From: Lingula anatina
Lineage: Eukaryota; Animalia; Brachiopoda
NCBI GenBank assembly: GCA_051362555.1
Contig: CM120643.1
Span: 15,164,644 to 15,228,643 of the forward strand
Reading direction: 5' to 3'
DNA length: 64,000 nucleotides
Position numbers and translations under genes: made by a program. Shown one piece after another: positions 19,812-47,500 of this stretch (position 1 is the stretch's first letter; every line of letters starts with the position of its first letter). The notes below the pieces were generated by a model, which was given only the letters and a program-made list of their open reading frames with translations, was not told where the DNA came from and did not search any database.

Positions 19812-19878
<67 letters not shown>

Positions 19879-22800
19879 AAACTTATTTGCAATATTAAAC
19901 AAAATTTACCTGCATAATTATCACTGCTTCCTTATTATTAATCTAGCAGAGAGCTTAACCTATGGGAGTTTACAGGGAAATATCAACAAGTGTGCTTTAT
20001 GTAATCTCAAATCACAAGTGTGCTTTATGTAGCCTATCAATTAGGCAAATTACTTTATAACTGAAATTAGCGAAGTGATACCCAAGGGAAATTTATAGAC
20101 TGACCCTCTCAAAGGTCTTTCAGGCCCATAAGTCACAACTAAGAAGAGCACAAAACAATAATGCACAAAATAGGAGACTACCACTTCTGATGCAATAATA
20201 CATTATGTTTTACTGCACAGTCAACATCAAATTTTAATCATGCACAACAGGTAACAACGACGAAAGTAAAAGCATAAGGCTTCAGGCCCATCAGAGTTCA
20301 AGTTTATACTTAAAAAATGCCAGAATGAGAAATATGAAAATTTCACTCAAAATTGCATAAATTCAATAATAAATGATAACCCAATTTACCTGGCTTTCTA
20401 ATTTGAAATGCATGCCAATCCTAAAAATCATACTTATCAGTTAAATATAATAATAAGTAACACAGTTTTCTTTTCATAATGTTTGCAGTAGCAGTGCAAA
20501 AAGATTATTGTCAATTTTGATGTAACATTACATAATAAATTATAGAATAATTATCACCAATTTTTGATTATTGACTATAAATAGCATGGACATGTAGAAA
20601 ATTTGATTACCATACGGCTTCATGCTCATGGGAGCTCCGAGTCCCACAATGAATATGCCAAAAAGATAATGAATATTTCACTAAAATGTATAACTTCCAG
20701 AAAAAGAAGCCAATTAGACTGCTTTTCCAACTCGGGCTGCATTTTAGTCATGTGTTTCTTTTTTGAAAATTTGACAATCATAAGTAACACGGTTTTCCCA
20801 AAATGGTCATCATGGCAGCGGCACCAAAAATTGTGTTTTCTTCTATTTTGATGCAACATTACATAATGCTTAACAGCATAATGACCATCAATTTTTAATA
20901 ATAAAATATACATGTCATGGATTTTCAGAAAATGTGACTAGTATGGGTCTTCAAGCACGTGGAGGTTCTAAGTTGCACCTTGAAAATGCCAATAAGTGAA
21001 AAATTAAATTTCCACAAAAAACTGTTAAATTGCCAGAAAAATTTACCAAACAGACTGCATTGCCTACTGAAGCTGTATGTTAGAGCCATGTTTCTTTCCT
21101 GTAAGTTTGAGAACAGCAAGTGACATGATTTCCCTTAAATGGTCATCATAGGAGCAGTTCCTAAATAGGGGTTTCTTCAAATTTTGATGCAACGTTACAT
21201 AATGTTTAACAGCATAATAACCATCAAATGTTATTAATAAAATATTACTAACATGGACATTCAGAAAACGTGACAAGCAAATGTCTTCAGGATCATGGAT
21301 CTTCAAAGTCACATCTTGAAAATGCCAAAATGTAAACAAGACAGCACTGTTCTGAAATGGGTTTATTTCCATTTTTAACATTTTTTTAACATAAAACAAA
21401 ATAAACATTTTACTGCCATTTTTATATGACCAACTAAGAAAATTGATGAGATGGGAAAAATATCAATAGAACAGTGTTAAATTTCCAATTTCCTCCATTC
21501 TGAGATTCTGAACATAGTGGATGATTGAATCTGACAAACTGAAATGACATGAGTTTATTTCCATTTTTGACACTTTATTACACAATACACAATAACAAGT
21601 TTACCATCATTTTTACATAATCAATTAACAATGTTGTAAAGATGCAGGAAATATGAAACAAACACTTTTACATATCTTATTAGTTAAATAATGAGACTGT
21701 TAACATGCCTAAGAATTGAATCTGAGGAAATGTGAAAAAACAGCATAACTTCTAAAATAATGGCCCGATTATGCTTATTTTTGAACTCAACCTGCGTTTT
21801 AGTTAGTTTGACTACTCCTGTGAGTATAATGACAATTGGCCTATTTGTTTTTCTTTTATTGTGTTATCAGTGTTGCATATATGTTGAAAAAAGTGAAAAA
21901 ACAGCATAACTTCCTTAAAAATGGCCTGATCATGCTGATTTTTGAACTTGACCTGCGGATTATAAATATTCATCAGTTTTGTAAGTTTCAAGCCAAAAAG
22001 TAAAATGGTTTTCCACTTATTGTGTTATCGGTGCTGCATATATGCTGAAAAAAGGGAAAAAACAGCATAACTTCCATAAAATGGACCCGATAGCTCCGAT
22101 TTTCGAACTTGACCTGCATATTATGAATATTCATCAGTTTTATAAGTTTCAAGCCAAAAAGTAAAATGGTTTTCCACTTATCGTGTTATCGGTGCTGCAT
22201 ATATGGTGAAAAAAGTGAAAAAAAAAATAACTTCCCTAAAAATGGCCCGATCATGCTGATTTTCAAACTTGACCTGCGTATTATGAATATTTATCAGTTC
22301 TGTAAGTTTCAAGCCAAAAGCAAAAACAGTTTTCCACTTATCGTGTTATCGGTAAAAGTGCACGACGGCGACGACGGCACCGACGGCGACGACGACAGAT
22401 GCAGATGATGGCTATATGTACAGACACATCTGTGTCTGTACATAAAAAGATCACTAAATGAAATATCATCATATAAAATTCACAATGAGAAAAGAATATA
22501 CTGAAGCAACATTTTAACACAATAAAAGAATTTACTGGAAAAATTTAAAACTGCTATTTACCTGTGACCCCTTAGATATCTTAACAGCAGGTATGTGGGC
22601 GGCCCTCATTGCCTCTCTCACTATATAGTCCCCCGCAGTTTGTGTTCCCGCCACCTGCAGGCTCCTCTTGGTCAGTGTCTGGGTCTCAGTGCTGACCTCT
22701 CGTCTGTCTCTCGTCTGCGTGGCCGTAGCAGTCCTGATGTTCGCAGCATGAAGAGCATGCTGGCCTGAAATGGAATTTTTTAAAAATTCTTTAAAAATAT

Positions 22801-23004
22801 ACATTTTTTTTAAGTTTTTGGGGTTAATGTCCCTCAATTCTTTATTGTATTTTAGAATTTTGAAAGATAATTTTAAAGTAACAATGTATAATTTTAGTAT
22901 TGTATTTTTTAAAATCTTAAACTGTACAGAACATGTCGGTGCTAGGTGCAATGGAAATGTACAAGTACATAGTGAAATGTGCCACACAACAATTAAATAT
23001 TATT

Positions 23005-23064
<60 letters not shown>

Positions 23065-26000
23065 TGAGGCTAGGCCCCTGTGAGGTGATAATATGGCAGA
23101 ATTTGTGCCTCCTGGAATAGGAGCCTGTAAATGTGGCTGTAAAATAAATAATTTAAAATTATTTATTTCAAAAGTACAGTTTACTTCATATCTATTATGG
23201 AAAGGGCTCAGAGTAGTCTGTTGCACAACAGTTTTCAATACATGGGGCAGTCATGAAACTAATTTAATTTTAATTCTTATTTAATCCTATAATATCTTAA
23301 TCTCAATATATACAGGCATGAAAAATGATCGAATTATCAAATGGCAATATATGTTATCTACCAAACACAACTGTATTACAGTATTCCAATAACAAAACTA
23401 TGTAATAACCTGATATCTGTTCAATGAGGGTAGTGTCTGTATGGCCATAGAAGTATGGTTGACGCCTGGCTCTGTCTGTGTGTCCACACTTTGAGTATTA
23501 TGGGATGGCAAAAAATGCATAACTGGACCTGGATAAAAGTAACCAAGTTTCAGAAAGCAATAAATTCATACTTTTGGAATATATATGCATAGATGTAATA
23601 ATTATCACTGTGAAAATGCCTGTTATAATGAAATTTTGAAGCTTTGGAGTCCCACTTTAAATAATAATTTCTATTTCATTTAATAACATTTATCATTTAA
23701 TAACATATATCATTTTTGCTTTTACTTGATATATGAACAAACAGAAAATATTTATCAAAAGATATGAGGGAAGATTTAACTGATAATATTAAAGTACAAT
23801 AAATCTTATATTAGGAAATACCATGAATATTGACCGTAAACACTGGTTCAAATTGACCAGAATCAGCATCATGTTGGTTAGAAATGTAAAATGTTTACAA
23901 CTGACAAGGTGTTAATTAGTTATAACTCATACCTATTAGGCTTTCTACCTAAAGGATCTTGTTAAATGAGTCTTTAGTCAGCAACATACTAGATAGCAAC
24001 AGAGTTAGAGATTCTGTTATCACAACAAACACAGAAATTAGAAACTTGGGTATAATTTTCCACAACAAAAGTGACATAACATCACACATTAACAATGTGT
24101 GTAAATCATCATATTTTAATCTGCAATGAATATTATCTAAGATTCTTCACCTTATTGACAGCAAGCAAACAGCATTTGTGACTTCTAGACTCAATTATTG
24201 CAACAGCCTCTTGTTCGAATACCTACTGTAACTATCAAATGGAAAAGCTTCAGTCTATGCAGAATTCAGCAGCCGATCTCCTTTGTAAAACTCAGAAGTC
24301 CGACCACATCACACCAGTTGTCCGCGATCTTCATTGGTTACCCGTGTCTCAAAGAATATTTAATATATTGCTCTTGACTTTCAAAATTTTAAAAGGCGAC
24401 TGTCCATTTTACATGAACAATATAATAGAAATTTTTATCTCCTTTTAGAACTCTTCATTCCAGTGGTCAGTTTCAACTCAAGCGAAACAATACCAAAAAG
24501 ACTCCTAAAACATGTGGTCACAGGAGTTTGGAAATATGGTTCACTTTATGGTCCAATTTTATTAATATATCAAATGTGTCTTTAAATGACTCTTAGCACT
24601 GTTTTAAAGAAAATTGAAAACACCTTTTATTTAAAGAACATTTTGGTTAACTGTTAGTATCTTTTAATTTAAAATACTTTAATGTTAGTTTTTAATTTAT
24701 CTTTGTAGTTTTAGTTTTTATATGTAAACACAGCTGAGACGCATGTGTAGAACTTTTAAGAAATTATTATTTTTATTATTATTATTATTATTATTATTAA
24801 CACATGAAATATTGGCAAAATTCTACAGGGCTCATTGTACTAAACATACAGTTCCTGAGGATGATGTCACTCACACATCCCACATAGACAAAGGTCCTTT
24901 TCATCACACACCGTATATAATACAAACATACAAACCTTTTAACTGGATGGCAGCCATTTTTTCTGGTGCATTAGATTTGGGGAGGAGGGGCTTTAGACAA
25001 GAGGGTCTCGAGGCAGGTGAAGTCTTCGGCTTGAGTGACATTTTTGGTCCTTCTACATACACTTGGAATACCATGTCTGGCAATGGAGGGGTGACAGCCG
25101 AGCCTTTGCTTTTGGCAGTGCTAAATAGGATGCAATAATATTATTAAAATTTTGCACCAAGATCAATTTAAACAAAATCACAGAACACGAACTGTAAACA
25201 TTGGGAAATTTAAACATTTCAAGGATATACATTGTATGTGCAGTTTTCAGAGTTGTATATAATAACATGAAAAAAAATTCAATAATACTCTTATCTATAT
25301 TTCTACTTTCTACACTTTGTGCTAATATTCATCTCTTTGAAGATCCTTTCAATTAAATTGAGTCCTTCTGGTAAATATAACTTTGGTTTATAGATCATAT
25401 TTTTTTCAACAGTATTGCATAGGGTATACCCTGATAAGTAACAGAAAATAATTGAAAATTCCAGTTTTTTTTTTTTTTTTTTTTGCTATTAAAAGGTCTA
25501 AGGGACATTATAATTATGTACATTTAAAAGTAATGAGCAATTGTTTCTGTATATGTTCTGCTTTCTGTACCGCATGTCACAAATAGAACACCTACGTCAA
25601 ATATTCCTTAGTATGACTTGGCCTATATTAGCATAAAATGAAATTAAAAAAGACAACTATATTATTTTGCTTTTTTACCATAACCCCCTCCCCTCAATCA
25701 TTACCTGGCCTTTTTTGGCTTGTACTCTTGTGGGTAGGGGTGGTTTGCTCTGGAACAGTGCGTGGCCAACGCTTCTCTCGTAAAATACCAGTGGTCACAT
25801 GACTTACAGGTGTAGGTGACTCCACAGGATTCCTCATGCCACTTCCTGTCTCTGTCCAGTCCGAAATTCCGCCTGCACTTGCTGCACTGGTACTTTTTCT
25901 CAGCATGTACCTTCATGAAATGCTGAATGACAAAATATAGTAATCAGTGAGTAAGTCATGTGCTCAAGGTCCTACAATCAAGGGTCAAACATGCCTTATA

Positions 26001-29687: not shown

Positions 29688-30221
29688 ATTTTTTTTGGGC
29701 TGTCAAGGTTTGTAAACCCGGGAACTATACCTGTAAAGTTGTCATTTCGCGTCCGCCACGTTTCACATAATCCAACTTCTGACAGAAAATAGTTAATTCT
29801 ACATTGCTTCTATATTTCCGTAATCCCCTAATATTTACACAGCATACATTCAACGATATGTTGTATTTCGGGTTTTGGCCTAGCCCCTATTTATCAGTTT
29901 ACATTGGGGCCTTTTCTCTTAATGATTTTATCAACGCACATTTGCATGGCTAACGAGTTTTCTAGATTACCGAAAATGTTGCATAATGTTCCTGATTGAG
30001 GATGCACATATTTTACAATGGGATTTAAATTTCGTTTTCGGAATGTTTAACGTTCGGTGTCAACTTTTCAAATAATCGCAATTTACAATTACTTGTTTCT
30101 TTAACATACAAAGTGAATCGCTGGCTGATCCAAGATTACAGTTAATATCTCAAAGACAAGATGCTTTTCATTTGCTATGGCATTACACAAAACTGTTAAA
30201 TAATGATCATGTAAATGCACC

Positions 30222-30479
30222 TGTAACGTTAGTAAGTGACAGCATGCAGCGAATAAGAGCGGGGAGTGTTTTGTAGTGTCACTTTAGTTGATTGACACGG
30301 CCTTATTGTACTTAAGCGAAGAATGTAATTTAGACGGGGAGAACGATGTAAGAGGTTGAACGATGAGGAACAAACTGTAGATAGCGTAGTTAGAAAGCGA
30401 TAATAAAGAATATGGGAAAACATGGAATTGTTTAGTTATTACCTCGCGCCACCAAGACAAAGTCAGTAACGTCGTCACA
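30222..30479 (+). repeat. 5' LTR
   Basis: tgtaacgttag...gtcgtcaca, identical to 36177-36434. Contains AATAAA. Confidence 0.97.
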
Positions 30480-30481
30480 TA

Positions 30482-30494
30482 TGGTGGAGGATGC
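30482..30494 (+). promoter_or_regulatory. Primer binding site, probably tRNA-Ala
   Basis: TGGTGGAGGATGC starts 2 nt after the 5' LTR and is complementary to a tRNA 3' end ..CUCCACCA, typical of tRNA-Ala. Confidence 0.75.
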
Positions 30495-30524
30495 AAAAAG
30501 AGGAAGAGACTTTCAACATGAATA

Positions 30525-31607
30525 ATGTCAGATAGAGAGGGACCAGTCACCAGACAGACATCCAGAGGAGAACGTATTCTATCCGAAAATAGGATGGCAA
30601 CGGGACAAACAAAGGAAATGAAAGGTAAGGAAGAACCTTTTGATTTTTTAGATATTCGAGACCATTTAGAAGACATTCACATGAAATTAGATGTTATGGG
30701 CAAGGGTGACCCTCTTTTACAAGCAGTTCAGAGGCAACTTACAGAATTAAATGAAAAACCAACTTCCGTTTTTGCCGGTCCAAATATCGATACATTCTTT
30801 GGCTTTTCAACAGAAAACGCGCGGTTATGGCTTACGAGGTTTGAAAATTACTGCAATTTGAATAAATATTCCCCAGATCGGAAATTGCATGCCTTTATGC
30901 TATACATGAAAGGTCCAGCTGAAATATGGTTATCCGAATTGTCTGACGCAAGAAAATCGAGTTACGATGTTCTTAAAACCGAATTTCAAAACAATTTCGA
31001 CAGACAAACGTCAAAATGGACTAGAGAACACGAACTCGGAGAAAGAAAACAAGCAGAAAATGAATCCATCGAGGTTTACATCGCAGATATGCGACACCGT
31101 TTTTCTCTGCTTAATAAAAGCGCGGACGATAGACTCGCGTATTTCGTGAGAGGGTTACGGAACGAAATAAAACGTTTTGTTATTGCGCAAAACCCATCTA
31201 ATTTAGAAGAAGCAGAAAATCATGCACGATTAGGGTCAACAATTGCATCAATACCGGTTGAAAACGAAAAGCCGGAGATCGTAACATCTGTCTCTGGAAT
31301 TGAGAAAAATCTCCAGCGAATAATGGAACAGCAGGAAAAACAAATTAATGACATTCGCCGGGAAATTAGACGCGAGCAAGTAGGAAAACAACACTTTGCG
31401 GGAACACCGTACTGTTCTTACTGTCGTAGGAACGGGCACACATATGCTGCGTGTCGGCGTCAAAAACAGACCACAGGGGGGCCCCGTTGTTTCAAATGCA
31501 ACAGATTTGGGCACATACAGAAATTTTGCAGATCATTTCCAAATTCCCGACAACAAAATACTCGAGGGAGGCAAAACTTTTACAATGGGAACCGAAATTT
31601 AAACTAG
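30525..31607 (+). CDS. gag: Gag (360 aa): retrotransposon capsid and two CCHC zinc knuckles
   Basis: Intact ORF with WLTRFENYC, LYMKGPAEIW, RKQAENESIEVY and YFVRGLR. Knuckles CSYCRRNGHTYAAC and CFKCNRFGHIQKFC. Confidence 0.95.
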   Translation: MSDREGPVTRQTSRGERILSENRMATGQTKEMKGKEEPFDFLDIRDHLEDIHMKLDVMGKGDPLLQAVQRQLTELNEKPTSVFAGPNIDTFFGFSTENARLWLTRFENYCNLNKYSPDRKLHAFMLYMKGPAEIWLSELSDARKSSYDVLKTEFQNNFDRQTSKWTREHELGERKQAENESIEVYIADMRHRFSLLNKSADDRLAYFVRGLRNEIKRFVIAQNPSNLEEAENHARLGSTIASIPVENEKPEIVTSVSGIEKNLQRIMEQQEKQINDIRREIRREQVGKQHFAGTPYCSYCRRNGHTYAACRRQKQTTGGPRCFKCNRFGHIQKFCRSFPNSRQQNTRGRQNFYNGNRNLN

Positions 31608-34198
31608 AACGGCAAAAATCACAAATTGGAAAAGAACGGGGTGAATTTTGCCAACATATTTCTAGGGGCACCCGTTCGATCATGGCATGTGAAAAGGAAA
31701 TAAAATTAGGGAAAAACAATTTTGTAGAACTGCTCATCAATGGAATCAAAATTAGTGCTTTGATAGATACAGGATCATATGTTACAATTGTGAATACCGA
31801 CCTATTACGGAAACACGACACTCTAAAATCACTACGTATCATAACATCTACAGAAACGACAGCTGTGGCTGCAAATAACACACGAATCACATTGAAAGGG
31901 CAAGTGTCAGTAGATTTGCGTTTCCCTGGTGGATACAATTCTGTTAACACGTTAGTGCAAACAGCTGATAATATTGGGTATGATATGATTATTGGGAATG
32001 ATTTCCTGAGAGAAAACAGAGCGATTATAGATTTCACTAAACACACGGTCAGACTTTCAAAGAAAAGTTACCCAGTCAAGGCTATTAAAAATGTTTTGAT
32101 ACCTGCGGAATCAGAAGTTCTTTTTCTCTGTGCTATCCATGCGAATTTACCCAATGGAGTTGAAGGAGTTGTTTACAAAAACAAAAATTTATCACATTTG
32201 CCTTTTGAATGTGCGAGGGTTTTAGGTGTTACTAATCAAAATATGATCCTTGTGCGATGTATAAATACTGCGAAGTATCCTTTTCTCATCAGGAAAAGAA
32301 CAAAATTAGGATGTTTTTCAATTTTGCCCCAAGATACAAAAATTACTGAATTTTCAAACGATACAGAAAAGTCGGGAAGAACTATAGCTCCGACGACGGT
32401 GAATGAAACAAAAAATGAAGTCCCTGATGTAGATTTCAGTGATTCAGATATCACTAGTGAACAAAAAGCAGAATTTGTTGATTTGTTGTCAAAATATGCG
32501 GACGTATTTAAACAACCTGGGGAGCCTTTGAAAATGACCCCAGTCATTGAACATGATATCAGAGTGGACCCAAATCAAATGCCCATTCGTTCGCAAATGT
32601 ATCGAACGTCACCAAAACATCGGAAGATTATAGAGGAACAGGTAGGGAACATGTTACAAGAAGGTATTATAAGACCATCTGTCTCTCCGTGGAGTAGTCC
32701 GGTCGTTTTAGTACAAAAACCAGATGGCTCATATCGTTTTTGCATTGATTACAGAAAGCTGAATGCGGTTAAAAAAGATGATGTTTACCCTTTACCGAGA
32801 ATTGACGATACGATAGACGCGTTGGGGTCAATTAAACCGAAATTCATGTCAACGTTTGACCTTCAAAGTGGATATTGGGAAGTAGGGTTATCAGAAAAAA
32901 GTAAACCGATGAGCGCATTCGTTTGTCATGCCGGTCTTTTTGAATTTAACAGAATGCCGATGGGTCTTAAAAGTTCAGGCGCAACTTTTTCACGAATGGT
33001 AGAAAATGTGTTTCGAGGTTTATCATGGAAAACACTTTTCTTGTATTTAGATGACATTATAGTTGCGAGTCCCACTTTTGAAGATCACCTTCGTGATGTA
33101 GAAACTGTTTTCCAAAGGCTAAGAAAAGCGAACTTAACATTGAAGCCATCTAAATGTTTTATTGCACGAAAAGAAGTCAAATATTTAGGGTACATAGTCT
33201 CCAAAGACGGTGTTCGTGTTGACCCTATGAAGTGTAAGGCGGTGCAGGAATTCCCAGTCCCTTTAAATGTTAAACAAGTACGCGGATTTTTAGGATTGGC
33301 AAATTACTATCGGAAGTTTATAAAAGGCTACGCTGCCATAGTTAGACCTTTGACAGCTCTTACACAAAAGGGGAAAGAATTTAAATGGTCTGAAGAATGC
33401 CAAACGAGTTTCGATACCCTGAAGACTGCGCTTACATCTGCTCCAATTCTTGCGTATCCCAATTTTAATCTCCCGTTTATTCTTTACACCGACGCGAGTT
33501 CACACGCGTTAGGCATGGTTCTATCACAAATACAAGACGGTAAAGAAAGAGTCATCGCTTATGCCGGGAGAGGTTTAAAAAGACACGAGAAAAATTATCC
33601 CATTACGGAATTGGAAGGATTAGCAGTTGTACAAGGTATAAAATATTTCGATATCTACCTTAGGCATTCCAAATTCAAAGTTATCACAGACCACGATAGC
33701 CTTAAATGGTTATTGTCACAAAAACAACCGCGTGGAAGATTGTGTCGATGGATACTGACTTTATCCCCGTACAATTTTACTATTGAACACAGAAAAGGAA
33801 AAAACCACGCGAATGCAGACGCGCTTAGCCGCCGCCCTTACGACATGGAAAACGATGATGAAGAATTAGACTTGGGCAAACTTTATGACACAACGCAGAG
33901 TTCAATTCCAAGTGACGCGTGTTTGAACAAAATACAGATGTCAGACCCCATCTCAGGACAGGTACTTGACGATAACTCTAACAAGAGTGACAACATATCA
34001 GATAAGTGTGGAATGCTTTTAGCAATTAAAGGGAAGACAAAGAACACAAATCGTTTGTCAAAATGTCAAGACTATCAGTCATTTGTTTCAAAAGAAGAAT
34101 TGCTAAAACTCCAGCGTGAAGATAAGAACCTTGCGTCAATTATCGCGTATTTGACATCAGATGAACTACCACTTGGTAGTAAAGAAGCTCGACGTTAG
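31451..34198 (+). CDS. pol: Pol: aspartic protease, reverse transcriptase and RNase H; ends before integrase (probably entered by frameshift at ~31604)
   Basis: ALIDTGS (PR); SPWSSPVVLV, RFCIDYRKLN, DLQSGYW and YLDDII (RT); YTDAS, ELEGLAV, TDHDSL and NADALSR (RH). No HHCC, DDE or GPY/F motifs. Confidence 0.95.
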   Translation: MSASKTDHRGAPLFQMQQIWAHTEILQIISKFPTTKYSREAKLLQWEPKFKLERQKSQIGKERGEFCQHISRGTRSIMACEKEIKLGKNNFVELLINGIKISALIDTGSYVTIVNTDLLRKHDTLKSLRIITSTETTAVAANNTRITLKGQVSVDLRFPGGYNSVNTLVQTADNIGYDMIIGNDFLRENRAIIDFTKHTVRLSKKSYPVKAIKNVLIPAESEVLFLCAIHANLPNGVEGVVYKNKNLSHLPFECARVLGVTNQNMILVRCINTAKYPFLIRKRTKLGCFSILPQDTKITEFSNDTEKSGRTIAPTTVNETKNEVPDVDFSDSDITSEQKAEFVDLLSKYADVFKQPGEPLKMTPVIEHDIRVDPNQMPIRSQMYRTSPKHRKIIEEQVGNMLQEGIIRPSVSPWSSPVVLVQKPDGSYRFCIDYRKLNAVKKDDVYPLPRIDDTIDALGSIKPKFMSTFDLQSGYWEVGLSEKSKPMSAFVCHAGLFEFNRMPMGLKSSGATFSRMVENVFRGLSWKTLFLYLDDIIVASPTFEDHLRDVETVFQRLRKANLTLKPSKCFIARKEVKYLGYIVSKDGVRVDPMKCKAVQEFPVPLNVKQVRGFLGLANYYRKFIKGYAAIVRPLTALTQKGKEFKWSEECQTSFDTLKTALTSAPILAYPNFNLPFILYTDASSHALGMVLSQIQDGKERVIAYAGRGLKRHEKNYPITELEGLAVVQGIKYFDIYLRHSKFKVITDHDSLKWLLSQKQPRGRLCRWILTLSPYNFTIEHRKGKNHANADALSRRPYDMENDDEELDLGKLYDTTQSSIPSDACLNKIQMSDPISGQVLDDNSNKSDNISDKCGMLLAIKGKTKNTNRLSKCQDYQSFVSKEELLKLQREDKNLASIIAYLTSDELPLGSKEARR
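31598..31652 (+). promoter_or_regulatory. -1 programmed ribosomal frameshift signal (gag-pol)
   Basis: Slippery heptamer T TTA AAC (31598-31604) in the gag frame just before the gag stop. A 6-nt spacer follows, then stem GGCAAAAATCAC (31611-31622)/GTGAATTTTGCC (31641-31652) with 11 of 12 pairs. Pol is in the -1 frame. Confidence 0.85.
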
Positions 34199-34815
34199 GC
34201 GAGGGGGATAGGCTCCCCGAAGCCCTGACGTCAACAGGCGGCAGTGGAGTCGCAAGGCTCTGGGGGCACATTAAAGACGTGCTATAGTGCTGTGGGAGAA
34301 GACTGAAGGCCCACTGTGTCTCGAATCCTGAATTAACAGGATACTGTGGTACCGTCTAGTCGGCTCAGTGTTAACGAGTTCACTGAGTGGTACGGGGACG
34401 ACAGTCCTCACCTAGCCATGCGTAGTTGATGCGGTTCCAACACGATGGTGAACAGGCAAGGCTGGTGAAAACGGTCAAAGTTCCGATAACCCATGGCAGT
34501 GGGACCGGGATCAGACCGTCGGTTGCTCCCTGGGAGCCTGGTAAGCTCTACGGGATCGAGTGATCGCTATCGACTGGGTCACCGGCCGGTTGGGTCGCAA
34601 AAGGCAGTAAGGCTTAAGAATAGCAGCCGCGCTCAGCTCAATGTACAGTCAGGCCCTAGCAAACTGAAAACGAATGAGCTAGTAAGTGAGCTAGTGGGAA
34701 AGGTACTCAGCCTAGGTTGCGCCCCTGGCAAGGAGGGGAGACTGAAGAGTATAAGCGATATAAATACTAAAATCTGGGACGCCAGATAAATATTAGCATC
34801 TGGGACGCCAGATTG
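34199..34815 (+). ncRNA. Candidate ~600-nt highly structured RNA segment inside the Gypsy element, in place of integrase
   Basis: Hand count gives 302/540 GC (56%) over 34201-34740, against an AT-rich context. More than a dozen adjacent or nested stems, several with G-U pairs, and a GCAA tetraloop. No family assignment is possible by eye. Confidence 0.5.
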
Positions 34816-36176
34816 CGTTATTATTATTTTTATTATTAGCATAAGTATTATTGTTGGAAAAATTATCGTATTATTAGCATGGTTCCATATATGTTTTATT
34901 GTTATCATAGTCTTTTGGATGGATAATACTATGGCAAGTTAAAATCTTGCCTGTTAAATGTGACTGTATTCAAGTTTGATGATGATTGTTATAATATACG
35001 TAGTTAAGTTTTTCTTGACATGCATTTCTGCTTCATTCATTTTGGATATATTCGTAAACGCTGGACATAGACATTCGTGGATATAAAGGAAACTGTGAAC
35101 ATTTATCTACACGTATGCCAACGTGCGCGAATAAGACGTTTATCCATATACAATGAGTGGCAGATGACAATCGCTATGCACTGTCTAGAAGGACGGATTT
35201 GACATTATATGATAACTGAACTTTCGTGCTAAAATTCAAAAATGGAGGATATAACGGGCTATACCAAATGGAACTTTTCATTTGAGTGGATATGAACTTT
35301 AAATTTTAGAGTTAACTTTGATTTATATGTTATTGCATGTGGTTATAATGACACATTAAGTATTGTGTGTTGAATAATAAATACGTTTAGTATTTATAAT
35401 ATATCTATATTCCGTTTGTCGGTCTTATAATTATTAGTTATTGATATTTAACTATACAGTTATTGGTACAGGAACAGTGTACTTAACTTTTATAAAGATA
35501 GAGACGTGAAACTAATGATATGCATTATGGAAGATTCTTACTTAATTATTTTTCGGTATGTTTTTTTTTTGTTCAATCGTGGATTGGGTTTGATATAAAA
35601 CGATTGTTTCTCTTATAGCCATCAAAAGAGAGCGCTACAGTGTGGACAAATATGAAGATGAACGGGTACTTCATCATGAACGATGCGCTGGTCGCACCGT
35701 TGTGGTGAATGCTGCTCATTAGACAGGGAAGGTACCGCCCGATTGTCTCACTTGGTGCATTCCTACTAAATCTAAAATGACAACCAAGAAAAAGAGAGAA
35801 ACCGTAGAAAATGTGTCAGAGCCATAATAAGAGAGTAACAGATTTAAACATCCGCGCGGAGAAAACAAATAAAAATATCTGTGCTCTTGGGCCGCACATT
35901 GGAAGGTGTAAATGCCATTACGAAATATATCCACGAACATTTGTATTTTCATAAAAATTTATCAATCTATCTTCCTTTAAGTTATATTTGGGGTTTCATG
36001 TCAATTGTATTTCTATCTTATCGTAGGTTTATAATACAAAATCTATGTACTTAGTTTTGTTTTGCTTGAATTTATGATAATAGACAAATGCAGTGTTTAA
36101 GAAAGTTTATTTTTAATTAAGGAATATTTTAATTTTAAATATGCCTGGGGACAGGCATATCGTCCCCGGGAGATAA

Positions 36177-36434
36177 TGTAACGTTAGTAAGTGACAGCAT
36201 GCAGCGAATAAGAGCGGGGAGTGTTTTGTAGTGTCACTTTAGTTGATTGACACGGCCTTATTGTACTTAAGCGAAGAATGTAATTTAGACGGGGAGAACG
36301 ATGTAAGAGGTTGAACGATGAGGAACAAACTGTAGATAGCGTAGTTAGAAAGCGATAATAAAGAATATGGGAAAACATGGAATTGTTTAGTTATTACCTC
36401 GCGCCACCAAGACAAAGTCAGTAACGTCGTCACA
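36177..36434 (+). repeat. 3' LTR
   Basis: Identical to 30222-30479 and followed by the TSD CACC. Confidence 0.97.
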
Positions 36435-36462
36435 CACCATAGCACTTCAGTAGCCGCCCATC

Positions 36463-39435
36463 CTACCACCCAGAAGCGTCAAAATAATCTATGTACTCTT
36501 TGAAATATTCTAACACCTCCTCCTCCCCAAGGCCATATCTTGCCAAATTGTACTTATGGCGCCCATACTTGTTTTGGGGATTTTCTCGTTGGTAAGCGTT
36601 CATTTTCTCTAAAGCTTGATCAGACAATGTCATTCCAAAGTGTCCGTATATCCGCCTGACAGCCTCGATTGGAGATGCAACAAGATCTTCATAATTAATA
36701 TCTATAAAACGGCTTTCTTCCTCCTTGTGCTTTTTTCTGAACTTTACCAACTCGTTGCCACTTTGAAACAAGGGGTTGCGTAAAAATATCTGACCTATCT
36801 TCTCCAGTGTACTTTTATCAATTTTGCAGCCGTACATTCGAAGTGTCCACTCCTTGAGAGAACAAAGGGACGCCACAGTTGCGCAAGGGTTTCGGAACGT
36901 ATGGATAAAACGAGCGTCGGGATACACCTCCAGTATGGCGTCTAGGTGAGCGCTGTGCATTGCCTCTTTTAGGAAAAGTTGTTGCCTCTTTTCGATGAAA
37001 TCTGAAAATACACAAGTACACCTAGTCGAACATCAGTATGGCGTTGTTTTTTCTGCAAAGCGCTACATGTAGCTTCTTGCAGTATGAAATATTATTTACT
37101 AACTTCTCCGCCTTCAAAGGTTATCAACACATAAACATGTATGTATTATATTTCGATGTACCTACCACTCAAAAGGGACAGTATTGTTAATCATCATTTA
37201 TTTATAGCTTTCCTTAGTTTAGTCACCCATTGTGCCTACCGAACCAGGACTAACCTACATTTAGAATAATCACTTTTCCCCAGTTACGATAAAATATTGG
37301 CAATTAATCAAACAAGGCAACATTATACCTGTTCCCCTCGCAAGTAAAATTAACTGAAGTTGTTTCTTGTGGAAGCGGTAAGCCTCCACCATCTGCGCTT
37401 TAGTCCTCGCACGAAGCCAGTTATAGTAATCACTGGGGTTGCTACTCAGTATGGGAGCGACGGTGAAAATGCCCACATTGCGAAAAATATAAAAGCATTC
37501 GTATGGCATCTCTGGCCGAATGTAGTGAATGGTCTTAGCCATAGGGTAAGCGTCGAAAGCCATGTCTGAAATTTAAGACAAACAATGCGAGTTGGCACTT
37601 TTAAATAGCAAAGAAAGTCAGAAATATCATCATTAATTGTTAAGAAATGTTTTATCTATAAACCCGTTTTGGGAGTTTAAATATCAATTTTTTACCCTTA
37701 AATTCACCATCTTCGTAATGTGAGTGATTCAAAAGCTAAAAACTTATAACTCAAAACCTGACTTATTGATTCTTATTCTGTGACCAGTTTTGGATTCGGT
37801 ACCAAGTAATAACTTGCTGAAATAGCAGGAAAACTATGTTTTTGCGCAGTGGTCAGGAGAAAAGAGAGACTACATCTGCAGCCAGGAATGGTCGACCTTT
37901 TTTTCTGTGTAAACGTGTCTAGACGTGAAAATTAATATATATACCTAATTCCTGTTTGATTGCCGCTATGCGTTTGTCCACAGAAGTTATCTCGGACACC
38001 GGCTGTCTTAACTCATATACCTTCATGGACGTATTTTGAGGGTCTTGATACAACAGATTCTGTAGAAATGTCGTGCCTGATCGAGACGGCCCGATGATGA
38101 ATATGGGTTTAGTTATCGGACACTGGAAATTAAGAACAAAATATTCAAATTAAGTCGTCGCATGTTGACAATTTTGTCGGGAAACTGAACATGTTTTAAA
38201 TATTAGTACTGAATTACTGCTGAATTGGTTTTGGATCAGATGCCATTTTTTTTTTTTTATTTACACTAGTACAAATTAAACAGCAATAAGTGGTCAAATC
38301 AATCACTTATTCCAAACGATACCTTTTTTTTTCAAAAGGTAAAGGTAATATGCCTTGAACCACGAGAGCCTCGATCGTTTTCGCGAATTCCTGATTCCGG
38401 GGCCAGGTCGTAGTCGTGACGGGCTGACATACGGTCTTAAGAGATTTTAACAAGAAACCAAACTTTTTAGTAAAAAACAAACTTAAAAAAAAAAAACAAA
38501 AAAAAAACAGGGACTAACTTTGAATGTAGAAATGGATTCATTAATTGGTAAGTATTGGGAAATTGTTGTTTACTCCAGGAAAATTCAATTTTTGGCCAAA
38601 ACGAACAGTTGATATCCCTTTAACGATTTACTTGTTGACGCTCGCTAACAACATGATCTAGGTGAAGTCTCCAACTTCGGAACTCTCTCCACTGACTTAT
38701 TAGCTCTCCCAAACGGCCTCTCTCTACATGTGATTCCCTCCCCAACCCCCCCCCCCCAACCTCCCAAGTATTAGAGAGTTTCCGTTGGCTTATATCCCTA
38801 TTTTTTATCTTAGGAGGATCCAATGCTCCACTGCGTGGTGCATACAAATCTTAATTACTCACGTAAACTTACATGTAAGCCCATAAAACAAGTCAAGTGC
38901 ACAAGCAAGCGACTCCATTAAAATTAATTTACGGGCGTGGGGATTATTTTTGTGAACTGAACAAGGTGCTTTTTGCCTCCATTTAATTAACCTTTCGGGA
39001 CACCCGTTTTATTCCAAACTCTGCTTCAACGTTTTATAGTTCGGTTGAGGGTATTACACACACACACGCACGCACGCACGCACGCACGCACACACACATT
39101 ACCGTGGATAAATCAACCACAGTCAGCCGGCGTAGTACTGCAAGTCGATTTCGAAGGCTACTTTCCAACAACTTTCCAAGCAAATATCTGGTGAAAGCAG
39201 ACTCAGTTTTGTCATTTTGGAAAGATCTTTGCAACACAAGCACCCCCTCGTAAGACCAACGGCCAATGGTAGTGTCCGAAAAAAGCAAACGCCGGTCAGC
39301 GTCAGAGAAATTCCCAAGCAGACTTTCTTCGGTGAGAGGAGAAAAACGCCTCTTAAACAAAGTCCGCAGAACAGCGTCGACAGCTTGTATGGCACACCGA
39401 AAGAAAAAGTAGAGAATCTTGTTGTAGTTCAGCAT
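36463..39435 (-). CDS. PAPS-dependent sulfotransferase (Sulfotransfer_3-like)
   Basis: Phase-consistent exons 39103-39435, 37945-38122, 37329-37565, 36463-37001. 5'-PSB motif PIFIIGPSRSGTTFL, 3'-PB motif YPDARFIHTFRNP, and C-terminal DINYEDLVASP..IYGHFG..GRHKYNLARYGL. Confidence 0.9.
38437..38622. repeat. Partial copy of the MITE at 40203-40526
   Basis: cttaagagatttt..cagggact..tttggccaaaacgaa..tatcccttta is shared with 40370-40530. Confidence 0.7.
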
Positions 39436-40530: not shown

Positions 40531-42225
40531 ATCCAAATTTGTGAAGTGCGGTTCATGGCGAAGAGTAGGTCAGGTCAATTTCAAGATCACAGTTAGATTG
40601 CCAGTATATGACTTCTTATTCAAGTTCAACAGAAACTATGGGCATATCTCTGCTAGTTTTGAAGATATAAGGAATGGAAACCTTGCATAGTTCAGTCCGT
40701 GGTGAAAAATAGGTCAAAGGTCAATTTTAAGGTCACAGTTAGATTGTCAGTATATGACTTCCTATTCAAGTTCAATAGTAACTTTGGGCAATCTCTGCCA
40801 GTTTTGGAGACATAAGAGATAGAAAGTTGCAAAGTCAAGTTCATGATAATAAGTAGTCAAAGGTCAATTTCAAGATCACAGATTACCAGTATATGACTTC
40901 CTATTCAAGTTCAATAATAACTATGGGAGTATCTCTGCCAGTTTTGGAGAAATAAAAGACCGAAATCTTGTAAAAGTCAGTTCATGGTAAAAAGTAGGTC
41001 AAAGGTCAATTTGAAAGTCACAGTAAGATTAACAGTGTATGATTTCCTTTTCAAGTTCAATAGTACCTATGGCTCTACTGTATCTCTGCCAGTTTTGGAG
41101 ATGTAAGGGACTCAAATGTTGCAAAGTTCAATTCATAGTGAAAATAAGTTCAAAGGTCAATTTCAGGGTCACAATCAAATTGCCAGTATATGATTTCCTA
41201 TTCAACTTCAATGGTAACTATGGCCCTATCTCTGCTAGTTTTGGAGATATAAGGGACTAAAATGTTGCAATTTTGGAGTTACAGTAATGTGCCATGAATT
41301 TCGTACAGAAGAACTAATTGAAATAAAGGAAAGGTCATTTTAGTTGATATTCATGAAATGGGAGGTGCTCAGAAATTCCAGATGTTCGAATTTTATGAAA
41401 TAACGTCATTTTTGACCAGAAGTTGTCTGCCTCACTATGCCTTATGTTATATTTTCCTGACGTTCAAAATTTTATGCATATTACCCTATTGCACATTTTG
41501 CTTTCACAACCACAATGTACTTTTGATACAGAGTAACTTGTAAACCATATGGAAAACAAAAAACGGACACCAGCCCCGATGTTGGGCTTGACATGCTCTA
41601 TCAAATGCAAAAATTCAGAGGTCTCTAGCATAAGCGGTTCTAAAATTAAAGAGTTTTCAGTTTTGGCATCTAATGGTCGCTGCTCCTGTGAAAATGCACT
41701 GACTGACCCCAAACTCAAGGGAGATGAAAGAGGACCAAAATGGTAACACCTGCCAATAACAGTACATGTGAGTTATGCGTAGTTTCTGAATATTGGTGCA
41801 AATAATTTTTTTTCATAAAAAATTCCCATTTTTAGAAAATTTTGGCCTGTTTCACCTGGAAATAAAGGTCAAAGGTCAAATCCAAGGGCATATTTGAAAT
41901 CTCCACATATGACTTTCGATCAGCCATCTGTAGAAAATTTTCCCATAATTCTTTAGATTTGGGAGATATTTAGCATTTAATTTTGCAAATTTTGGACAAG
42001 TGTGCATTACGATGAGCGCCACACCTAGACCCCTGCACTGAAGGGGCCCAAACTTTACGTGAATCGAGTTGAGATTATACGTGACCTAAATACAAGAGAT
42101 AGGTACGCAGGCCCCTGTAGTCTAGGAGGAGAAGCTGTAACGGTGATGTGGTGGCTGAGCCAGCAGAACATGCAGGTTGGGACTAAAACCATGTGTACCG
42201 CCAGCACCTATGCTGGTGGTACAAT
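40531..42225 (-). mobile_element. Helentron-type non-autonomous element (HINE) with ~5 units of a ~146-bp tandem repeat; one end truncated
   Basis: Reverse-complement homologue of 46165-48774. Terminal tgtaccgccagc-acctat-gctggtggtacaat at 42194-42225. Array at ~40540-41260. Confidence 0.75.
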
Positions 42226-44580: not shown

Positions 44581-47500
44581 ACTAGAAACAAAAATTCCAA
44601 AGTATTAGCCAAGTTAACATGAGAATGGTGTGTGTGTGTGTGTATGTGTGTGTGTAAGCATACATGTGCCACAAGTAAAAACGTTTCTTTGGTTTTAGCC
44701 AAGTAAAAACTATTAAAAGTCCTCTGAGGGAACCTACAGAGGGTGGAGAAAGGGGGGGGGGCATGTGCCCCCTCTTACCCAGAGAGTCCTGCAGGAGGTA
44801 GGTGAGCTTGGAGTTCCTGTAGGGGACATGAGCCTGCTTGTTCCTCAGGGACTGGATGACGTCACCCAGGGAGGACAGGGACTTGTTGATGTTCTGTGCC
44901 TCCTTCAGACGGGCACCGTCTGCACCAGACTTATTCACCCGCTCAGAGCCAGCCAAATCAACTAAGTTCAGCTTGCCTAGAAATTAGGATGGAAAATTAA
45001 AGGCATGAAATGTGTGTTAGACCTTCATATAGTAAAAACTGAAATTTCCTGACACTTACAGCAATTTTTCATTTATCAATAATGTATTTCCCATCCTAAA
45101 CTGTTGAGAAAATTATAAACTAAAATTTCTTTTTGATTTCTAAATTTCTTATTTATAATCAAGAGCCTTTCTTCATTACAGGCAAAATGTAGCAAGACAG
45201 AAAAACAGAATGATTATACAGTCAATTTGTTCCTGCTTTCTGTTCATTCTCTAAAAGCAGAATTACAGAAGAAAAAAATACAGAGCTGTGTATCTGAAAT
45301 AAGGAAACAAAAAAAATTGTTTTATCGATTTTTACTGATTTTACCAATTCTACTCACCCACAGTCTTGGCTCCAGTAGTTTTGTTCCTCCCAATCACATT
45401 CACACAGAGCAGAGCATGCGAGCGCGAGGAGTGCTCATTCATGTTCGTGCATGCTGTCGCTCTGTTCCTGTGTCCTAGGGCAAAGGTCTGAAAGGAACAA
45501 GATATACACTCTCACAGGAAGTCTTTTAAAACAACAGGCTGTCTGCTATTGATGAAGATGGCAAAGTACTGGTGTGAAATATTATATTATATTATATTAT
45601 ATTATATACATTTTTAATTGTCATTTTGATGCTTTTAAAGATCAATAACTGACTTTTCCAATCCATGCACACATTTCATGTAAAACAGTGCATGCGAGTG
45701 TGTGTGCATGTGTGTGTGCTGCCCATCTGTCTACATGTACATGCCAATAAATTTTAGTCTTTTCAGCCAGAAGGACAATATACCAACATATATATATATG
45801 GATGAGCACGTGCTTATGTTTGTACAGATCGCAATTCCATAAATAGTGACAAAGCACCTTATATCATGTTGGCATGGTAACTTAGTAGATGTCCTCACCT
45901 CGTTAATGTCCTCCACAGACTGGACCCTGATGGTGGTCAGCCCTGGGACATACAGACCCCCCTCGGGGCTCATCTTCACCTCCATCTTGTAGCTGGGGTC
46001 AGAACTCAAAAGGTCTCTGGAGATTAATAACATTAAAAACATATTGTATGTTATAATGTTATCTACCAGATTTGGGACTGATCGTCTTTACATCTGTTTC
46101 ATAGATGGGCTAAGAACTCAACAAGTGTCTGATATTTAATAAAATTCATATTTATACCACATTAATTGTACCACCAGCGTTAGCGCTGGCGGTACACATG
46201 GTTTCGGTCCCGTCCGGATCGTTCCGCCGGCTCCGCCGGCTCCGCCGGACGGCTACCGTTACCGCTTCTCCTCCTAGACGGTAAGGGCCCCCGTACCCAT
46301 CTCATGGATTTAGGTCACCTATAATCTCAACTCGTTCCACGTAAAATTTGGGCTTTGTCGGTATTGGGGTCTGGGTGTGGCACTCATTGCAATGCACCCT
46401 TGTCTAAAAATGGCAAAATTAAATGCTAATTATCTACCCTACGGAAGGAGTTATGGGAAAAATTTCTATAGACGGCTTTCCAAAAGTCATATGTGTAGAT
46501 TTCAAATATACCCTTGGATTTGACCTTTGACCTTTACTTCAAGGTCAAATGGGCCAAAATTTTCAAAAAAATGAAATTTTTTACGAAAAAATTTTTTTTT
46601 GCCCTGTTATTCAGACACCACACAGACTTAACCAATAATATTATTGGAAGGTGTTACCCTTCAGGTCATCTTTCATCTCCATGAATTTGGGGTCAATCGG
46701 TGCATTTTCACGGGAGTAGCGGCCATAAGATACCGAAACTGAAAACTGTCTCTAATTCGGGAACCGTTAATGCTAGAGACCCATTCTTTTTTGCATTTTG
46801 TAGAGCATGTAAAGCCCAACACTGGAGGTGGTCTCGGTTTTTTTGTATTCCATACGGTTTTCGAGTTACGCTGTATCAAAAAGTACATATTGGTGGTAAA
46901 AGCAAAATGTGCAGTACGGTAATGGATAATAAATTTTGAACTCTGGAAAAATAAAACATAAGGCTTGGCAAAGCAGACAACTTGTGTTCAAAAATGACAT
47001 TATTTCATCAAATTTGAACTTCTGAAACTTCAGAGCACCTCCTATTTCAAGAATTTTGACCAAAATGACATTTTCTTTATTTTAATTAATTTTTTCTGTA
47101 TGAAATTTAAGGCACATTATGGTAACTCCAAAATTATAACATTTAGTCCCTTATATCTCCAAAACTGGCAGAGATAGGTCCATAGTTACTATTGAAGTTG
47201 AATAGGAAGTCATATACTGGCAATCGTACTATGACCTTGAAAGTGACCTTTGACCTACTTTTCACCATGAACTGAACTTTGCAAATTTTTCTTCCCTTTT
47301 ATCTCCAAAACTGGCAGAGATAGGTCCATAGTTACTATTGAAGTTGAATAGGAAGTCATACACTGGCAATCTTTCTATGACCTTGAAAGTGACCTTTGAC
47401 CTACTTTTCACCATGAACTGAACTTTGCAAATTTTTCTTCCCTTTTATCTCCAAAACTGGCAGATATAGGTCCATGGTTACTATTGAACTTGAATAGGAA

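What the first reader, a model, noticed from the sequence alone, without database searches (positions are those of the whole stretch)
34199..34815. ~600-nt GC-rich, densely base-paired segment replacing integrase: candidate novel structured RNA paired with an RT
Seen: GC rises to ~56% right at the pol stop, and nearly the whole segment forms stems. Local stems: GGGGA/TCCCC (34204-18), CCTG/CAGG (34224-38), GGAGTC-GCAA-GGCTCT (34246-61, GNRA loop), GCAC/GTGC (34266-82), GTGGG/CCCAC (34292-314), ATCCTG/CAGGAT (34325-42), GGGGAC-GACA-GTCCTC (34394-409), CCCAT/GTGGG (34490-503), GCTCC/GGAGC. Nested stems: GTACC/GGTAC enclosing CTCAGTG/CACTGAG (34349-93), TCACC.AGCC/GGCTGGTGA (34408-68), and a multibranch domain closed by CAGTC/GACTG (34646-744). 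Several G-U pairs favour an RNA structure on the + (genomic RNA) strand. Inference, three alternatives: (a) an undescribed cis-acting RNA of this family (packaging, IRES, nuclease block or RT template); (b) a 5' region captured from a non-LTR element such as RTE by template switching; (c) a captured RNA-virus UTR.
Basis: partly seen in the sequence, partly recalled or inferred. Interest (0 to 1): 0.85.

Follow-up and report, generated by a model that had tools for sequence, protein, structure and literature searches.

The report
Group I intron in animal retrotransposon
The GC-rich stretch is a complete group I intron, a ribozyme type that reviews say occurs in nuclei only in ribosomal RNA genes of microbes, and here it sits in a recently inserted, integrase-less jumping gene in an animal chromosome; it is predicted to self-splice and likely spreads by riding on the element's RNA-to-DNA copying.

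Summary
The segment is real but is not a new RNA class, a LINE leader or an RNA-virus UTR. It is a 561-nt ORF-less group I intron (34197-34757). It has P1 with the U·G splice-site pair, P3-P8, the G-binding pair in P7 and a terminal G. Rfam misses it. Homologues interrupt the capsid, DNA polymerase and primase-helicase genes of large DNA viruses, with exon-matched guide sequences and compensatory changes (12 of 34 core pairs; 0 of 500 shuffles as high). The host is a young Ty3/gypsy element: identical LTRs, CACC target duplication, empty allele present in other animals of the species, no integrase. The flanks are intron-split animal genes. Reviews I read state nuclear group I introns occur only in rRNA genes of microbial eukaryotes; ten literature searches found no animal-nuclear or LTR-retrotransposon case. 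Splicing itself was not shown: RNA coverage is low and no spliced junction was listed. Likely route: reverse splicing into element RNA, then fixation by the element's own reverse transcriptase. That would make the long-proposed, unproven RNA route of group I mobility testable.

The parts
30218..30221 (+). 4-bp target-site duplication CACC, left copy
   Evidence: sequence; empty-site joint 30217 to 36435 with 4 shared letters in DNA runs X3, X9 and 2 reads of X15
30222..30479 (+). 5' LTR (TG...CA), 258 bp, identical to the 3' LTR
30482..30494 (+). primer-binding-site-like stretch starting TGG (tRNA-Ala type from recall, not tested)
   Evidence: sequence
30522..31607 (+). gag ORF (stop to stop)
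   Evidence: PF03732, PF19259
31430..34198 (+). pol ORF: protease, RT, RNase H, start of the integrase linker; in unspliced RNA it ends at a UAG made of the last exon base plus the first two intron bases
34191..34196 (+). end of the 5' exon, pairs with the internal guide sequence (P1); U34196 forms the U·G splice-site pair
   Evidence: (p 0.96); one of only two exact P1 matches in the 6.2-kb element
34197..34757 (+). group I intron, 561 nt, 56% GC, no ORF with a known family
   Evidence: Pfam blank for its 99-aa frame
34227..34232 (+). internal guide sequence, directly before the conserved AACAGG anchor as in the homologues
34236..34409 (+). 5' peripheral domain: long helix 34236-41/34352-57, GNRA hairpin 34246-61, hairpins 34325-42, 34363-88 and 34394-409
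   Evidence: paired in 10 of 10 introns examined, with compensatory changes; GACA hairpin in 11 of 13
34460..34587 (+). P3 (34460-67/34580-87), J3/4, P4 (34471-76/34514-19), P5 (34481-84/34507-10), P6 (34520-22/34564-66), J6/7, P7 5' strand (34570-76, bulged C, G of the G-binding pair at 34572)
34588..34651 (+). P8 (34588-94/34632-38), J8/7 (34639-45), P7 3' strand (34646-51)
34652..34757 (+). P9 region and terminal G (34757); P9.0 forms only with a one-base shift
34758..36176 (+). 3' exon: ten codons to a stop if spliced (stop 34787-89), then AT-rich 3' untranslated region with a short tandem duplication (34772-34813); no integrase remnant
36177..36434 (+). 3' LTR
36435..36438 (+). target-site duplication CACC, right copy
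36463..37032 (-). last coding exon of a host sulfotransferase-family gene; the element lies 28 nt past its stop, antisense

Best explanation
The segment is an ORF-less group I intron with a complete ribozyme core, predicted to self-splice, inside a non-autonomous Ty3/gypsy LTR retrotransposon in an animal nuclear genome, which it likely entered by reverse splicing into the element's RNA followed by copying by the element's reverse transcriptase. Shown: the core helices, P1 with U·G at 34196, terminal G at 34757, homology to introns in large DNA virus genes, the LTR element and its recent, polymorphic insertion. Inferred from group I chemistry: a free guanosine bound in P7 attacks after U34196, then the 5' exon attacks after G34757, joining the exons. 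Spliced or not, Pol ends without integrase (stop at once, or ten codons later), so the intron costs this element little. Inferred: copies that are reverse-transcribed before splicing keep the intron, and an integrase supplied in trans inserts them. A local helix (34409-17 with the P3 5' strand) would compete with P3 and may slow splicing, which would favour retention. Inferred and weaker: integrase was lost between two guide-matching hexamers, by template switching or by ribozyme-guided religation.
For: Generic group I descriptor: one hit in the 64-kb window on both strands, exactly here, and 0 of 2000 shuffles (descriptor written after I had seen the fold). Alignment of 14 introns: 99.6% of 476 cells paired, 12 of 34 pairs changed on both sides, 0 of 500 shuffles as high, slid controls 22-48% paired; P3 is fully rewritten in L058. 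In 12 bounded introns (window plus 11 viral) the last base is G in 12 of 12, the guide hexamer pairs 6/6 with its own exon in 10 of 12, and U·G stands at the splice site in 9 of 12. Viral homologues split polB between Pfam positions 230 and 242, capsid genes near their ends and a D5 primase-helicase. Peripheral helices pair in 10 of 10. 74 of 79 unnamed shadow-ORF clusters carry 3 or more of 5 core motifs, so the family is wide. The element has identical LTRs, a target duplication and an empty allele; the stretch is held by DNA runs of 4 studies of one organism. Contigs 34343-34724 and a diverged copy 34232-34615 (57 other letters, 15 gaps) show several intron copies. In X3 (4 contigs) and X9 (5 contigs) the 3' exon is also preceded by non-intron sequence ending in a hexamer that matches the window's 5' exon end at 5 of 6 places (read by eye), as an intron-less target would. 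Host genes are intron-split kinesin, ASCIZ-like and sulfotransferase exons, the last closest to Lingula.
Against: Splicing was not observed: no joint 34196 to 34758 is among the 15 of 42 joints shown, and RNA depth over the intron is only 0.9-4.4. Rfam gives no group I hit even at E 10, though it also misses 8 of 8 viral loci. P9.0 needs a one-base shift and P10 is at most one pair (sequence). Whole-segment folding is only modestly better than shuffles. Homologues were fetched by exact core motifs, so the invariance of P4, P6 and P7 is partly built in, and many rows are close kin. No intron-less and intron-bearing alleles of one site could be compared in full, no host genome was held, and the tree does not place the window intron, so donor and direction are unknown.
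Confidence: 0.85

Rival explanations
1. A true group I intron by descent, but now catalytically silent or nearly so in the animal nucleus, kept as a passenger or as a cis-acting structure (packaging, RNA stability) of the non-autonomous element.
For: No spliced junction listed and RNA reads hold an exon-intron junction of a diverged copy; a helix competing with P3 has p 0.94-0.99 in the nested fold; P9.0 is shifted; the intron survived an RNA stage very recently (identical LTRs).
Against: Every core pair and junction is intact and equal to the viral introns; the five intron differences listed all fall in peripheral stems (only 40 of 1183 rows shown); P1 is a perfect match to the present exon.
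Confidence: 0.2
2. The intron entered at the DNA level (homing by an endonuclease supplied in trans, or recombination with virus DNA), and the retrotransposon only copies it onward.
For: Endonuclease homing is the demonstrated route for group I introns (PMC3679873, passages); the nearest DNA homologues are in DNA viruses.
Against: No endonuclease ORF in this intron or within the 11 bounded viral ones (402-553 nt); no viral exon sequence flanks it; the guide sequence matches the new exon, as reverse splicing requires, and the viral members sit in three unrelated genes, each with its own matched guide.
Confidence: 0.15
3. Assembly chimera or contaminant: the intron or the whole element comes from a symbiont or virus rather than the animal's chromosomes.
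For: No listed piece spans the whole element; unnamed homologues come from metagenome assemblies.
Against: Target duplication and empty allele in host contigs and host RNA; depth in all 30 bins in both DNA runs laid; the stretch 33400-35600 is held at 53-73% of words by 9 runs of 3 studies; P1 pairs across the pol-intron junction.
Confidence: 0.03
4. One reading: a captured 5' region of a non-LTR element with an HDV-like ribozyme, or an RNA-virus UTR or IRES.
For: GC-rich, sharp borders; a superficial HDV-like P3/L3 look at 34212-24 (by eye).
Against: The HDV-like pairing is P1 of the intron and lacks the GG for P1.1; no Rfam IRES or ribozyme hit; homologues are introns in DNA virus genes.
Confidence: 0.01

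Closest known systems
Nuclear rDNA group I introns, subgroup IE (Didymium Dir.S956-1 GIR2) and IC1 (Tetrahymena Tth.L1925)
   Same: P1-P9 core, U·G at the 5' splice site, G-C pair in P7, terminal G; a simple P4-P6 scaffold as described for IE; nuclear location (PMC3679873 and PMC8395846, passages).
   Different: Those papers state nuclear group I introns are found only in rRNA genes of protists and fungi. This one is in a Pol II-type retrotransposon transcript of an animal. Not detected by Rfam; P13 not identified, so IE membership is open.
Group I introns of large eukaryotic DNA viruses (Nucleocytoviricota); here the unannotated-by-Rfam family in loci L010, L024-L049, L058
   Same: Same sequence family: 49-64% identity over aligned columns, nine conserved blocks, same peripheral helices, no ORF.
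   Different: They interrupt essential viral genes and must be spliced; the window copy interrupts a truncated pol end and need not be. Published giant-virus cases I saw carry endonuclease ORFs (PMC10675990, one passage).
Group I introns (RF00028) in Polinton-like viruses integrated in protist genomes
   Same: Nuclear group I intron outside rDNA, carried by a mobile element (PMC12220804, passages).
   Different: Protist hosts, DNA elements without an RNA stage, detected by Rfam. Here an animal host and an RT-dependent element.
IStrons (group I intron fused to IS605/IS607 elements in bacteria)
   Same: Group I intron associated with a transposon (PMC10690162, search listing and start of abstract only).
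   Different: There the intron contains the transposon genes and splices the whole element out; here the intron is ORF-less and lies inside a eukaryotic retrotransposon.
Non-autonomous LTR retrotransposons with captured or structured internal RNA (LARD, TRIM/Cassandra, retrozymes; recalled, retrozymes also in listing)
   Same: Intact LTRs and priming signals, missing enzyme, structured non-coding insert.
   Different: Keeps gag, protease, RT and RNase H, lacks only integrase; the insert is a large splicing ribozyme, not 5S RNA or a hammerhead.

Membership tests
Group I intron | P1 between 5' exon and internal guide sequence with U·G at the splice site | tested here: met
   6 of 6 pairs, U34196·G34227, guide in the same position as in homologues
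Group I intron | P7 with bulge and G-C guanosine-binding pair; P3/P7 pseudoknot | tested here: met
   P3 has 6 of 8 pairs changed on both sides among 14 rows
Group I intron | P4-P5-P6 scaffold with J3/4, J4/5, J6/7; P8 and J8/7 | tested here: met
Group I intron | Terminal G at the 3' splice site | tested here: met
   G34757; 12 of 12 bounded introns end in G; contigs change context at 34758
Group I intron | P9.0 and P10 guiding the 3' splice site (P10 optional) | tested here: inconclusive
   P9.0 two pairs only with a one-base shift; P10 at most one pair (sequence)
Group I intron | Interrupts a host transcript and is removed exactly | tested here: inconclusive
   Homologues split viral ORFs in frame; no spliced junction seen for the window copy at low depth
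Group I intron | Guanosine-dependent two-step self-splicing | not testable with these tools
   needs an in vitro assay
Rfam RF00028 Intron_gpI | Score above the family threshold | tested here: not met
   no hit at E up to 10; 8 of 8 viral loci also give none at E up to 1, so the model does not cover this family
Subgroup IE | Simple scaffold domain without the extended P5abc of IC1 | tested here: met
   short P5 with one hairpin extension; criterion from PMC3679873 passage
Subgroup IE | P13 long-range pairing | tested here: inconclusive
   only 3-4 bp candidates by eye; not counted on an alignment
Subgroup IE | G-site and core sequence like reference IE introns | not testable with these tools
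   no reference IE set or subgroup models on hand; likeness is recalled only
Ty3/gypsy LTR retrotransposon | TG...CA LTRs, target duplication, PBS, gag, PR-RT-RH order | tested here: met
Ty3/gypsy LTR retrotransposon (autonomous) | Integrase after RNase H | tested here: not met
   none in the element or elsewhere in the window; closest relative has integrase and chromodomain
IStron | Transposase or TnpB/IscB ORF inside the intron | tested here: not met
   561 nt, longest frame 99 aa with no Pfam family
HDV-like ribozyme of non-LTR 5' ends | Nested double pseudoknot with P1.1 and catalytic C in J4/2 | tested here: not met
   no GG after the candidate P1, no matching P2 (by eye); no Rfam hit

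The most novel reading that the evidence does not exclude
An Rfam-invisible family of ORF-less group I ribozymes moves between large DNA viruses of invertebrates and algae and animal LTR retrotransposons by reverse splicing, is active in an animal nucleus, and acts as an RNA recombinase on its carrier: guide-directed cleavage and religation joined upstream pol sites to the intron and so deleted integrase, creating non-autonomous families at least twice (the window junction at 34196 and a second junction near pol position 34080 seen in 6 RNA reads). This would be the first natural record of the full reverse-splicing, reverse-transcription and integration route, and of group I introns propagating in animal chromosomes.
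Probability: 0.3. Interest if true: 0.96.

Novelty: new variant of a known kind. Interest (0 to 1): 0.88.

Why it matters
Two reviews state that nuclear group I introns occur only in rRNA genes of microbial eukaryotes. An intact one in a currently mobile animal retrotransposon breaks that rule. One review also says the complete RNA route of mobility (reverse splicing, reverse transcription, integration) lacks experimental evidence; an intron inside an RT-encoding element, with intron-less and intron-bearing relatives in one genome, is a natural system to test it. The family is missed by Rfam, so it is probably overlooked widely: the same introns lie in iridovirus-like capsid and polymerase genes, while papers on invertebrate iridoviruses report no introns. 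It also points to gene flow between large DNA viruses and animal retroelements, and offers new compact ribozymes.

Tried and rejected
No host genome was held. Rfam, ARAGORN, phage and plasmid blastn (one 35-nt chance match) gave nothing. Pol-based locus searches found no relatives in viral or metagenome contigs. Patterns from variable parts found nothing real: metagenomes 0, prokaryote genomes 0, viral 0 of 9. Core patterns had chance hits that were dropped: 2 of 3, 9 of 10, 6 of the 7 new contigs, 1 of 2. Six near-identical variants of L026 were left out of alignment A3. No RNA holder was listed (not evidence). A finer read lay over the intron alone was not obtained, so variants and flanks of other host copies remain unseen. 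The tree of 13 introns had 1 of 10 branches supported and does not place the window copy. Pfam and the Atlas gave nothing for the shadow ORFs, so their genomic settings are unknown. HDV-like, hammerhead, twister, HCV-type IRES and flavivirus xrRNA likenesses were considered by eye from recall and rejected once the group I core and the intron context of homologues were found. Earlier-finding look-ups by sequence, place and first words were empty. Literature searches listed no group I intron in an animal nuclear genome or LTR retrotransposon; most were judged by title and abstract start, subscription journals are not covered, and no supplements were read.

Full report
Setting. The segment lies in a 6.2-kb Ty3/gypsy LTR retrotransposon: LTRs 30222-30479 and 36177-36434 are identical over 258 bp and flanked by a CACC duplication; gag and a pol with protease, RT and RNase H follow. 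The closest Pol found (P0001, 60% identical) aligns up to the last codons before the window's stop and continues with integrase and chromodomain; seven full-length relatives find no integrase remnant in the element or the window. The flanks are animal nuclear DNA: intron-split kinesin, ASCIZ-like and sulfotransferase exons, the last closest to a Lingula protein at 53%. Two DNA runs and two RNA reads show the empty site, so the insertion is recent and polymorphic. No host genome was available.

The observation. The stems and the GC step are there. Overall folding is only modestly better than chance: z -2.5 (1 of 120) for 34199-34815, -1.7 (9 of 150) for 34199-34757, -3.1 for the 5' half, -0.4 for the 3' half; hairpin number equals the shuffle mean. 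Rfam, ARAGORN, phage and plasmid searches were blank.

Finding homologues. A phmmer search with a spurious 89-aa frame of the segment returned 9 proteins, 7 of them unnamed short ORFs at 54-80% identity that switch between the window's three reading frames, the mark of a conserved non-coding element. A profile search gave 79 such clusters, 74 with at least 3 of 5 core motifs; their DNA settings could not be fetched. The same profile found IMG/VR locus L010, where the homologue splits a family B DNA polymerase between Pfam positions 230 and 242, begins after U and ends in G. A 17-nt core pattern then gave 26 loci, all 26 carrying the other core motifs, 17 distinct in sequence. Further scans added L058 (D5 primase-helicase) and L083 (a 5'-incomplete copy in a 1.3-kb non-coding contig). 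Most viral copies sit a few codons before the end of a large-DNA-virus major capsid gene.

Structure. The window holds the whole group I core: P3 34460-67/34580-87, P4 34471-76/34514-19, P5, P6 34520-22/34564-66, P7 34570-76/34646-51 with bulged C and the G-C pair, P8 34588-94/34632-38 and J8/7. On 14 rows (window plus 13; six near-copies of L026 dropped) 99.6% of 476 cells pair, 12 of 34 pairs change on both sides, 0 of 500 shuffles reach this, and slid controls pair at 22-48%. P4, P6 and P7 hardly vary, partly because the loci were fetched by those motifs, and many rows are close kin; the signal rests on P3, P5 and P8. A generic descriptor, written after I had seen the fold, hits once in the window on both strands and in 0 of 2000 shuffles. 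In 12 introns whose borders I set (viral ones by the reading frames on either side) the last base is G in 12, the six bases before the conserved AACAGG anchor pair fully with that intron's own exon in 10, and U·G is at the splice site in 9; three capsid introns have G-C there. For the window this fixes the intron at 34197-34757, with U34196·G34227; only one other exact P1 match exists in the element. P9.0 needs a one-base shift and P10 is weak. Rfam misses the window and 8 of 8 viral loci. The simple scaffold looks like subgroup IE as described in PMC3679873, but P13 was not identified and no reference set was on hand.

Other copies in the host (depth is not a copy number). A contig over 34343-34724 has depth 688 against 335-355 for two RT-region contigs and 102 for the empty allele in X3; X9 holds a diverged intron copy (57 other letters and 15 gaps over 34232-34615). 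Four X3 and five X9 contigs carry the 3' exon behind non-intron sequence ending in a hexamer that matches the window's 5' exon end at five of six places, as an intron-less parent would. Six X12 RNA reads join the intron start to different upstream letters that by eye resemble pol near 34052-34081 (18 of 30), suggesting a second integrase-less junction. RNA over the intron is on the + strand (the neighbouring host exon on the - strand gives the opposite mate direction) at depth 0.9-4.4, with zero over the RT bins 32210-33364; poly(A) 3' bias could explain that. No spliced joint is among the 15 of 42 shown, so splicing is neither shown nor excluded.

How it likely works. Shown: anatomy, homology, recent insertion. 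Inferred from established group I chemistry (PMC8395846, PMC3679873, passages): exogenous G attacks after U34196 and the exon then attacks after G34757. Unspliced RNA stops Pol at a UAG formed across the junction; spliced RNA would add ten codons; neither has integrase, so the element depends on a partner either way and pays little for the intron. With no endonuclease ORF, and with each family member carrying a guide matched to its own site, entry by reverse splicing into element RNA and fixation by the element's RT is the most economical route (about 0.7). A helix between 34409-17 and the P3 5' strand (p 0.94-0.99 in the nested fold) may slow splicing and help the intron survive the RNA stage. 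Loss of integrase between two guide-matching hexamers fits either RT template switching at a 5-nt repeat or ribozyme-guided religation; I cannot separate them. The tree does not resolve donor or direction; the nearest rows are the polymerase introns L027 and L010 at about 64%.

What is known. PMC3679873 and PMC8395846 (passages) say nuclear group I introns occur only in rRNA genes of protists and fungi, and the first says the full RNA mobility route lacks evidence; PMC3073962 (passages) gives the same distribution. PMC12220804 (passages) reports RF00028 introns in Polinton-like viruses integrated in protists; PMC10675990 (one passage) notes endonuclease-bearing introns in giant-virus RNA polymerase genes. 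PMC4149023 and PMC5923455 (passages) report no introns in invertebrate iridoviruses. PMC8557442 (passages) offered no precedent. Ten searches listed no animal-nuclear or LTR-retrotransposon case; subscription journals and supplements were not seen. Unchecked notes of this scan, read after my conclusion, mention group I introns in animal Polintons and in a fungal telomeric retroelement; they are leads only, but suggest the phenomenon is wider than this window.

Verdict. A real, intact group I intron of an Rfam-missed family in a mobile animal LTR retrotransposon. Identity about 0.97, activity untested (about 0.75). New variant of a known kind in a setting the reviews exclude; interest 0.88.

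Noticed in passing
L024-L026, L028, L029, L033, L041, L045 (about 1080-1680 on the intron strand): Group I introns a few codons before the end of large-DNA-virus major capsid genes, missed by Rfam. The contig lengths of L024 (205,791) and L028 (335,593) equal those I recall for invertebrate iridescent virus 9 and Ectocarpus siliculosus virus 1 (recall, not checked). Papers on invertebrate iridoviruses report no introns, so annotated capsid C-termini may be wrong.
   Followed up: partly
L029 (- strand, oriented 581-1084 and 1096-1627): Two introns of the family in tandem, separated by an 11-nt exon, in one capsid gene.
   Followed up: partly
L024, L033, second intron of L029: The inferred 5' splice site is a G-C pair, not U·G, while exon and guide sequence still covary between L024 and L033.
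   Followed up: partly
L010 4762-5163, L027, L058: Introns at catalytic motifs: in the YGDTD-S motif of family B polymerase and in the Walker A motif of a D5 primase-helicase.
   Followed up: partly
L083 942-1299: A 5'-incomplete member of the family, with the same P3 as the window, in a 1.3-kb non-coding contig filed under a bacterial MAG; possibly non-bacterial DNA in the bin.
   Followed up: no
P0136-P0142, P0149-P0220: Dozens of unnamed short 'proteins' in public collections are shadow ORFs of this intron family; several look like decayed multi-copy variants beside simple repeats, hinting at spread in other eukaryote genomes.
   Followed up: partly
window 36435-37032: The element is inserted 28 nt past the stop of a sulfotransferase-family last exon, antisense, probably in its 3' UTR; in X15 many LTR reads run antisense and continue into other sequence, as from a solo LTR in another transcript.
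   Followed up: no
   Followed up: partly
window 12277-13305 (-), 17172-25943 (-), 44585-52538 (-), 47003-48573: A Tc1-like transposase relic, an ASCIZ/ATMIN-like gene, kinesin exons, and a 146-bp satellite with inverted partners at 40558-41920.
   Followed up: no
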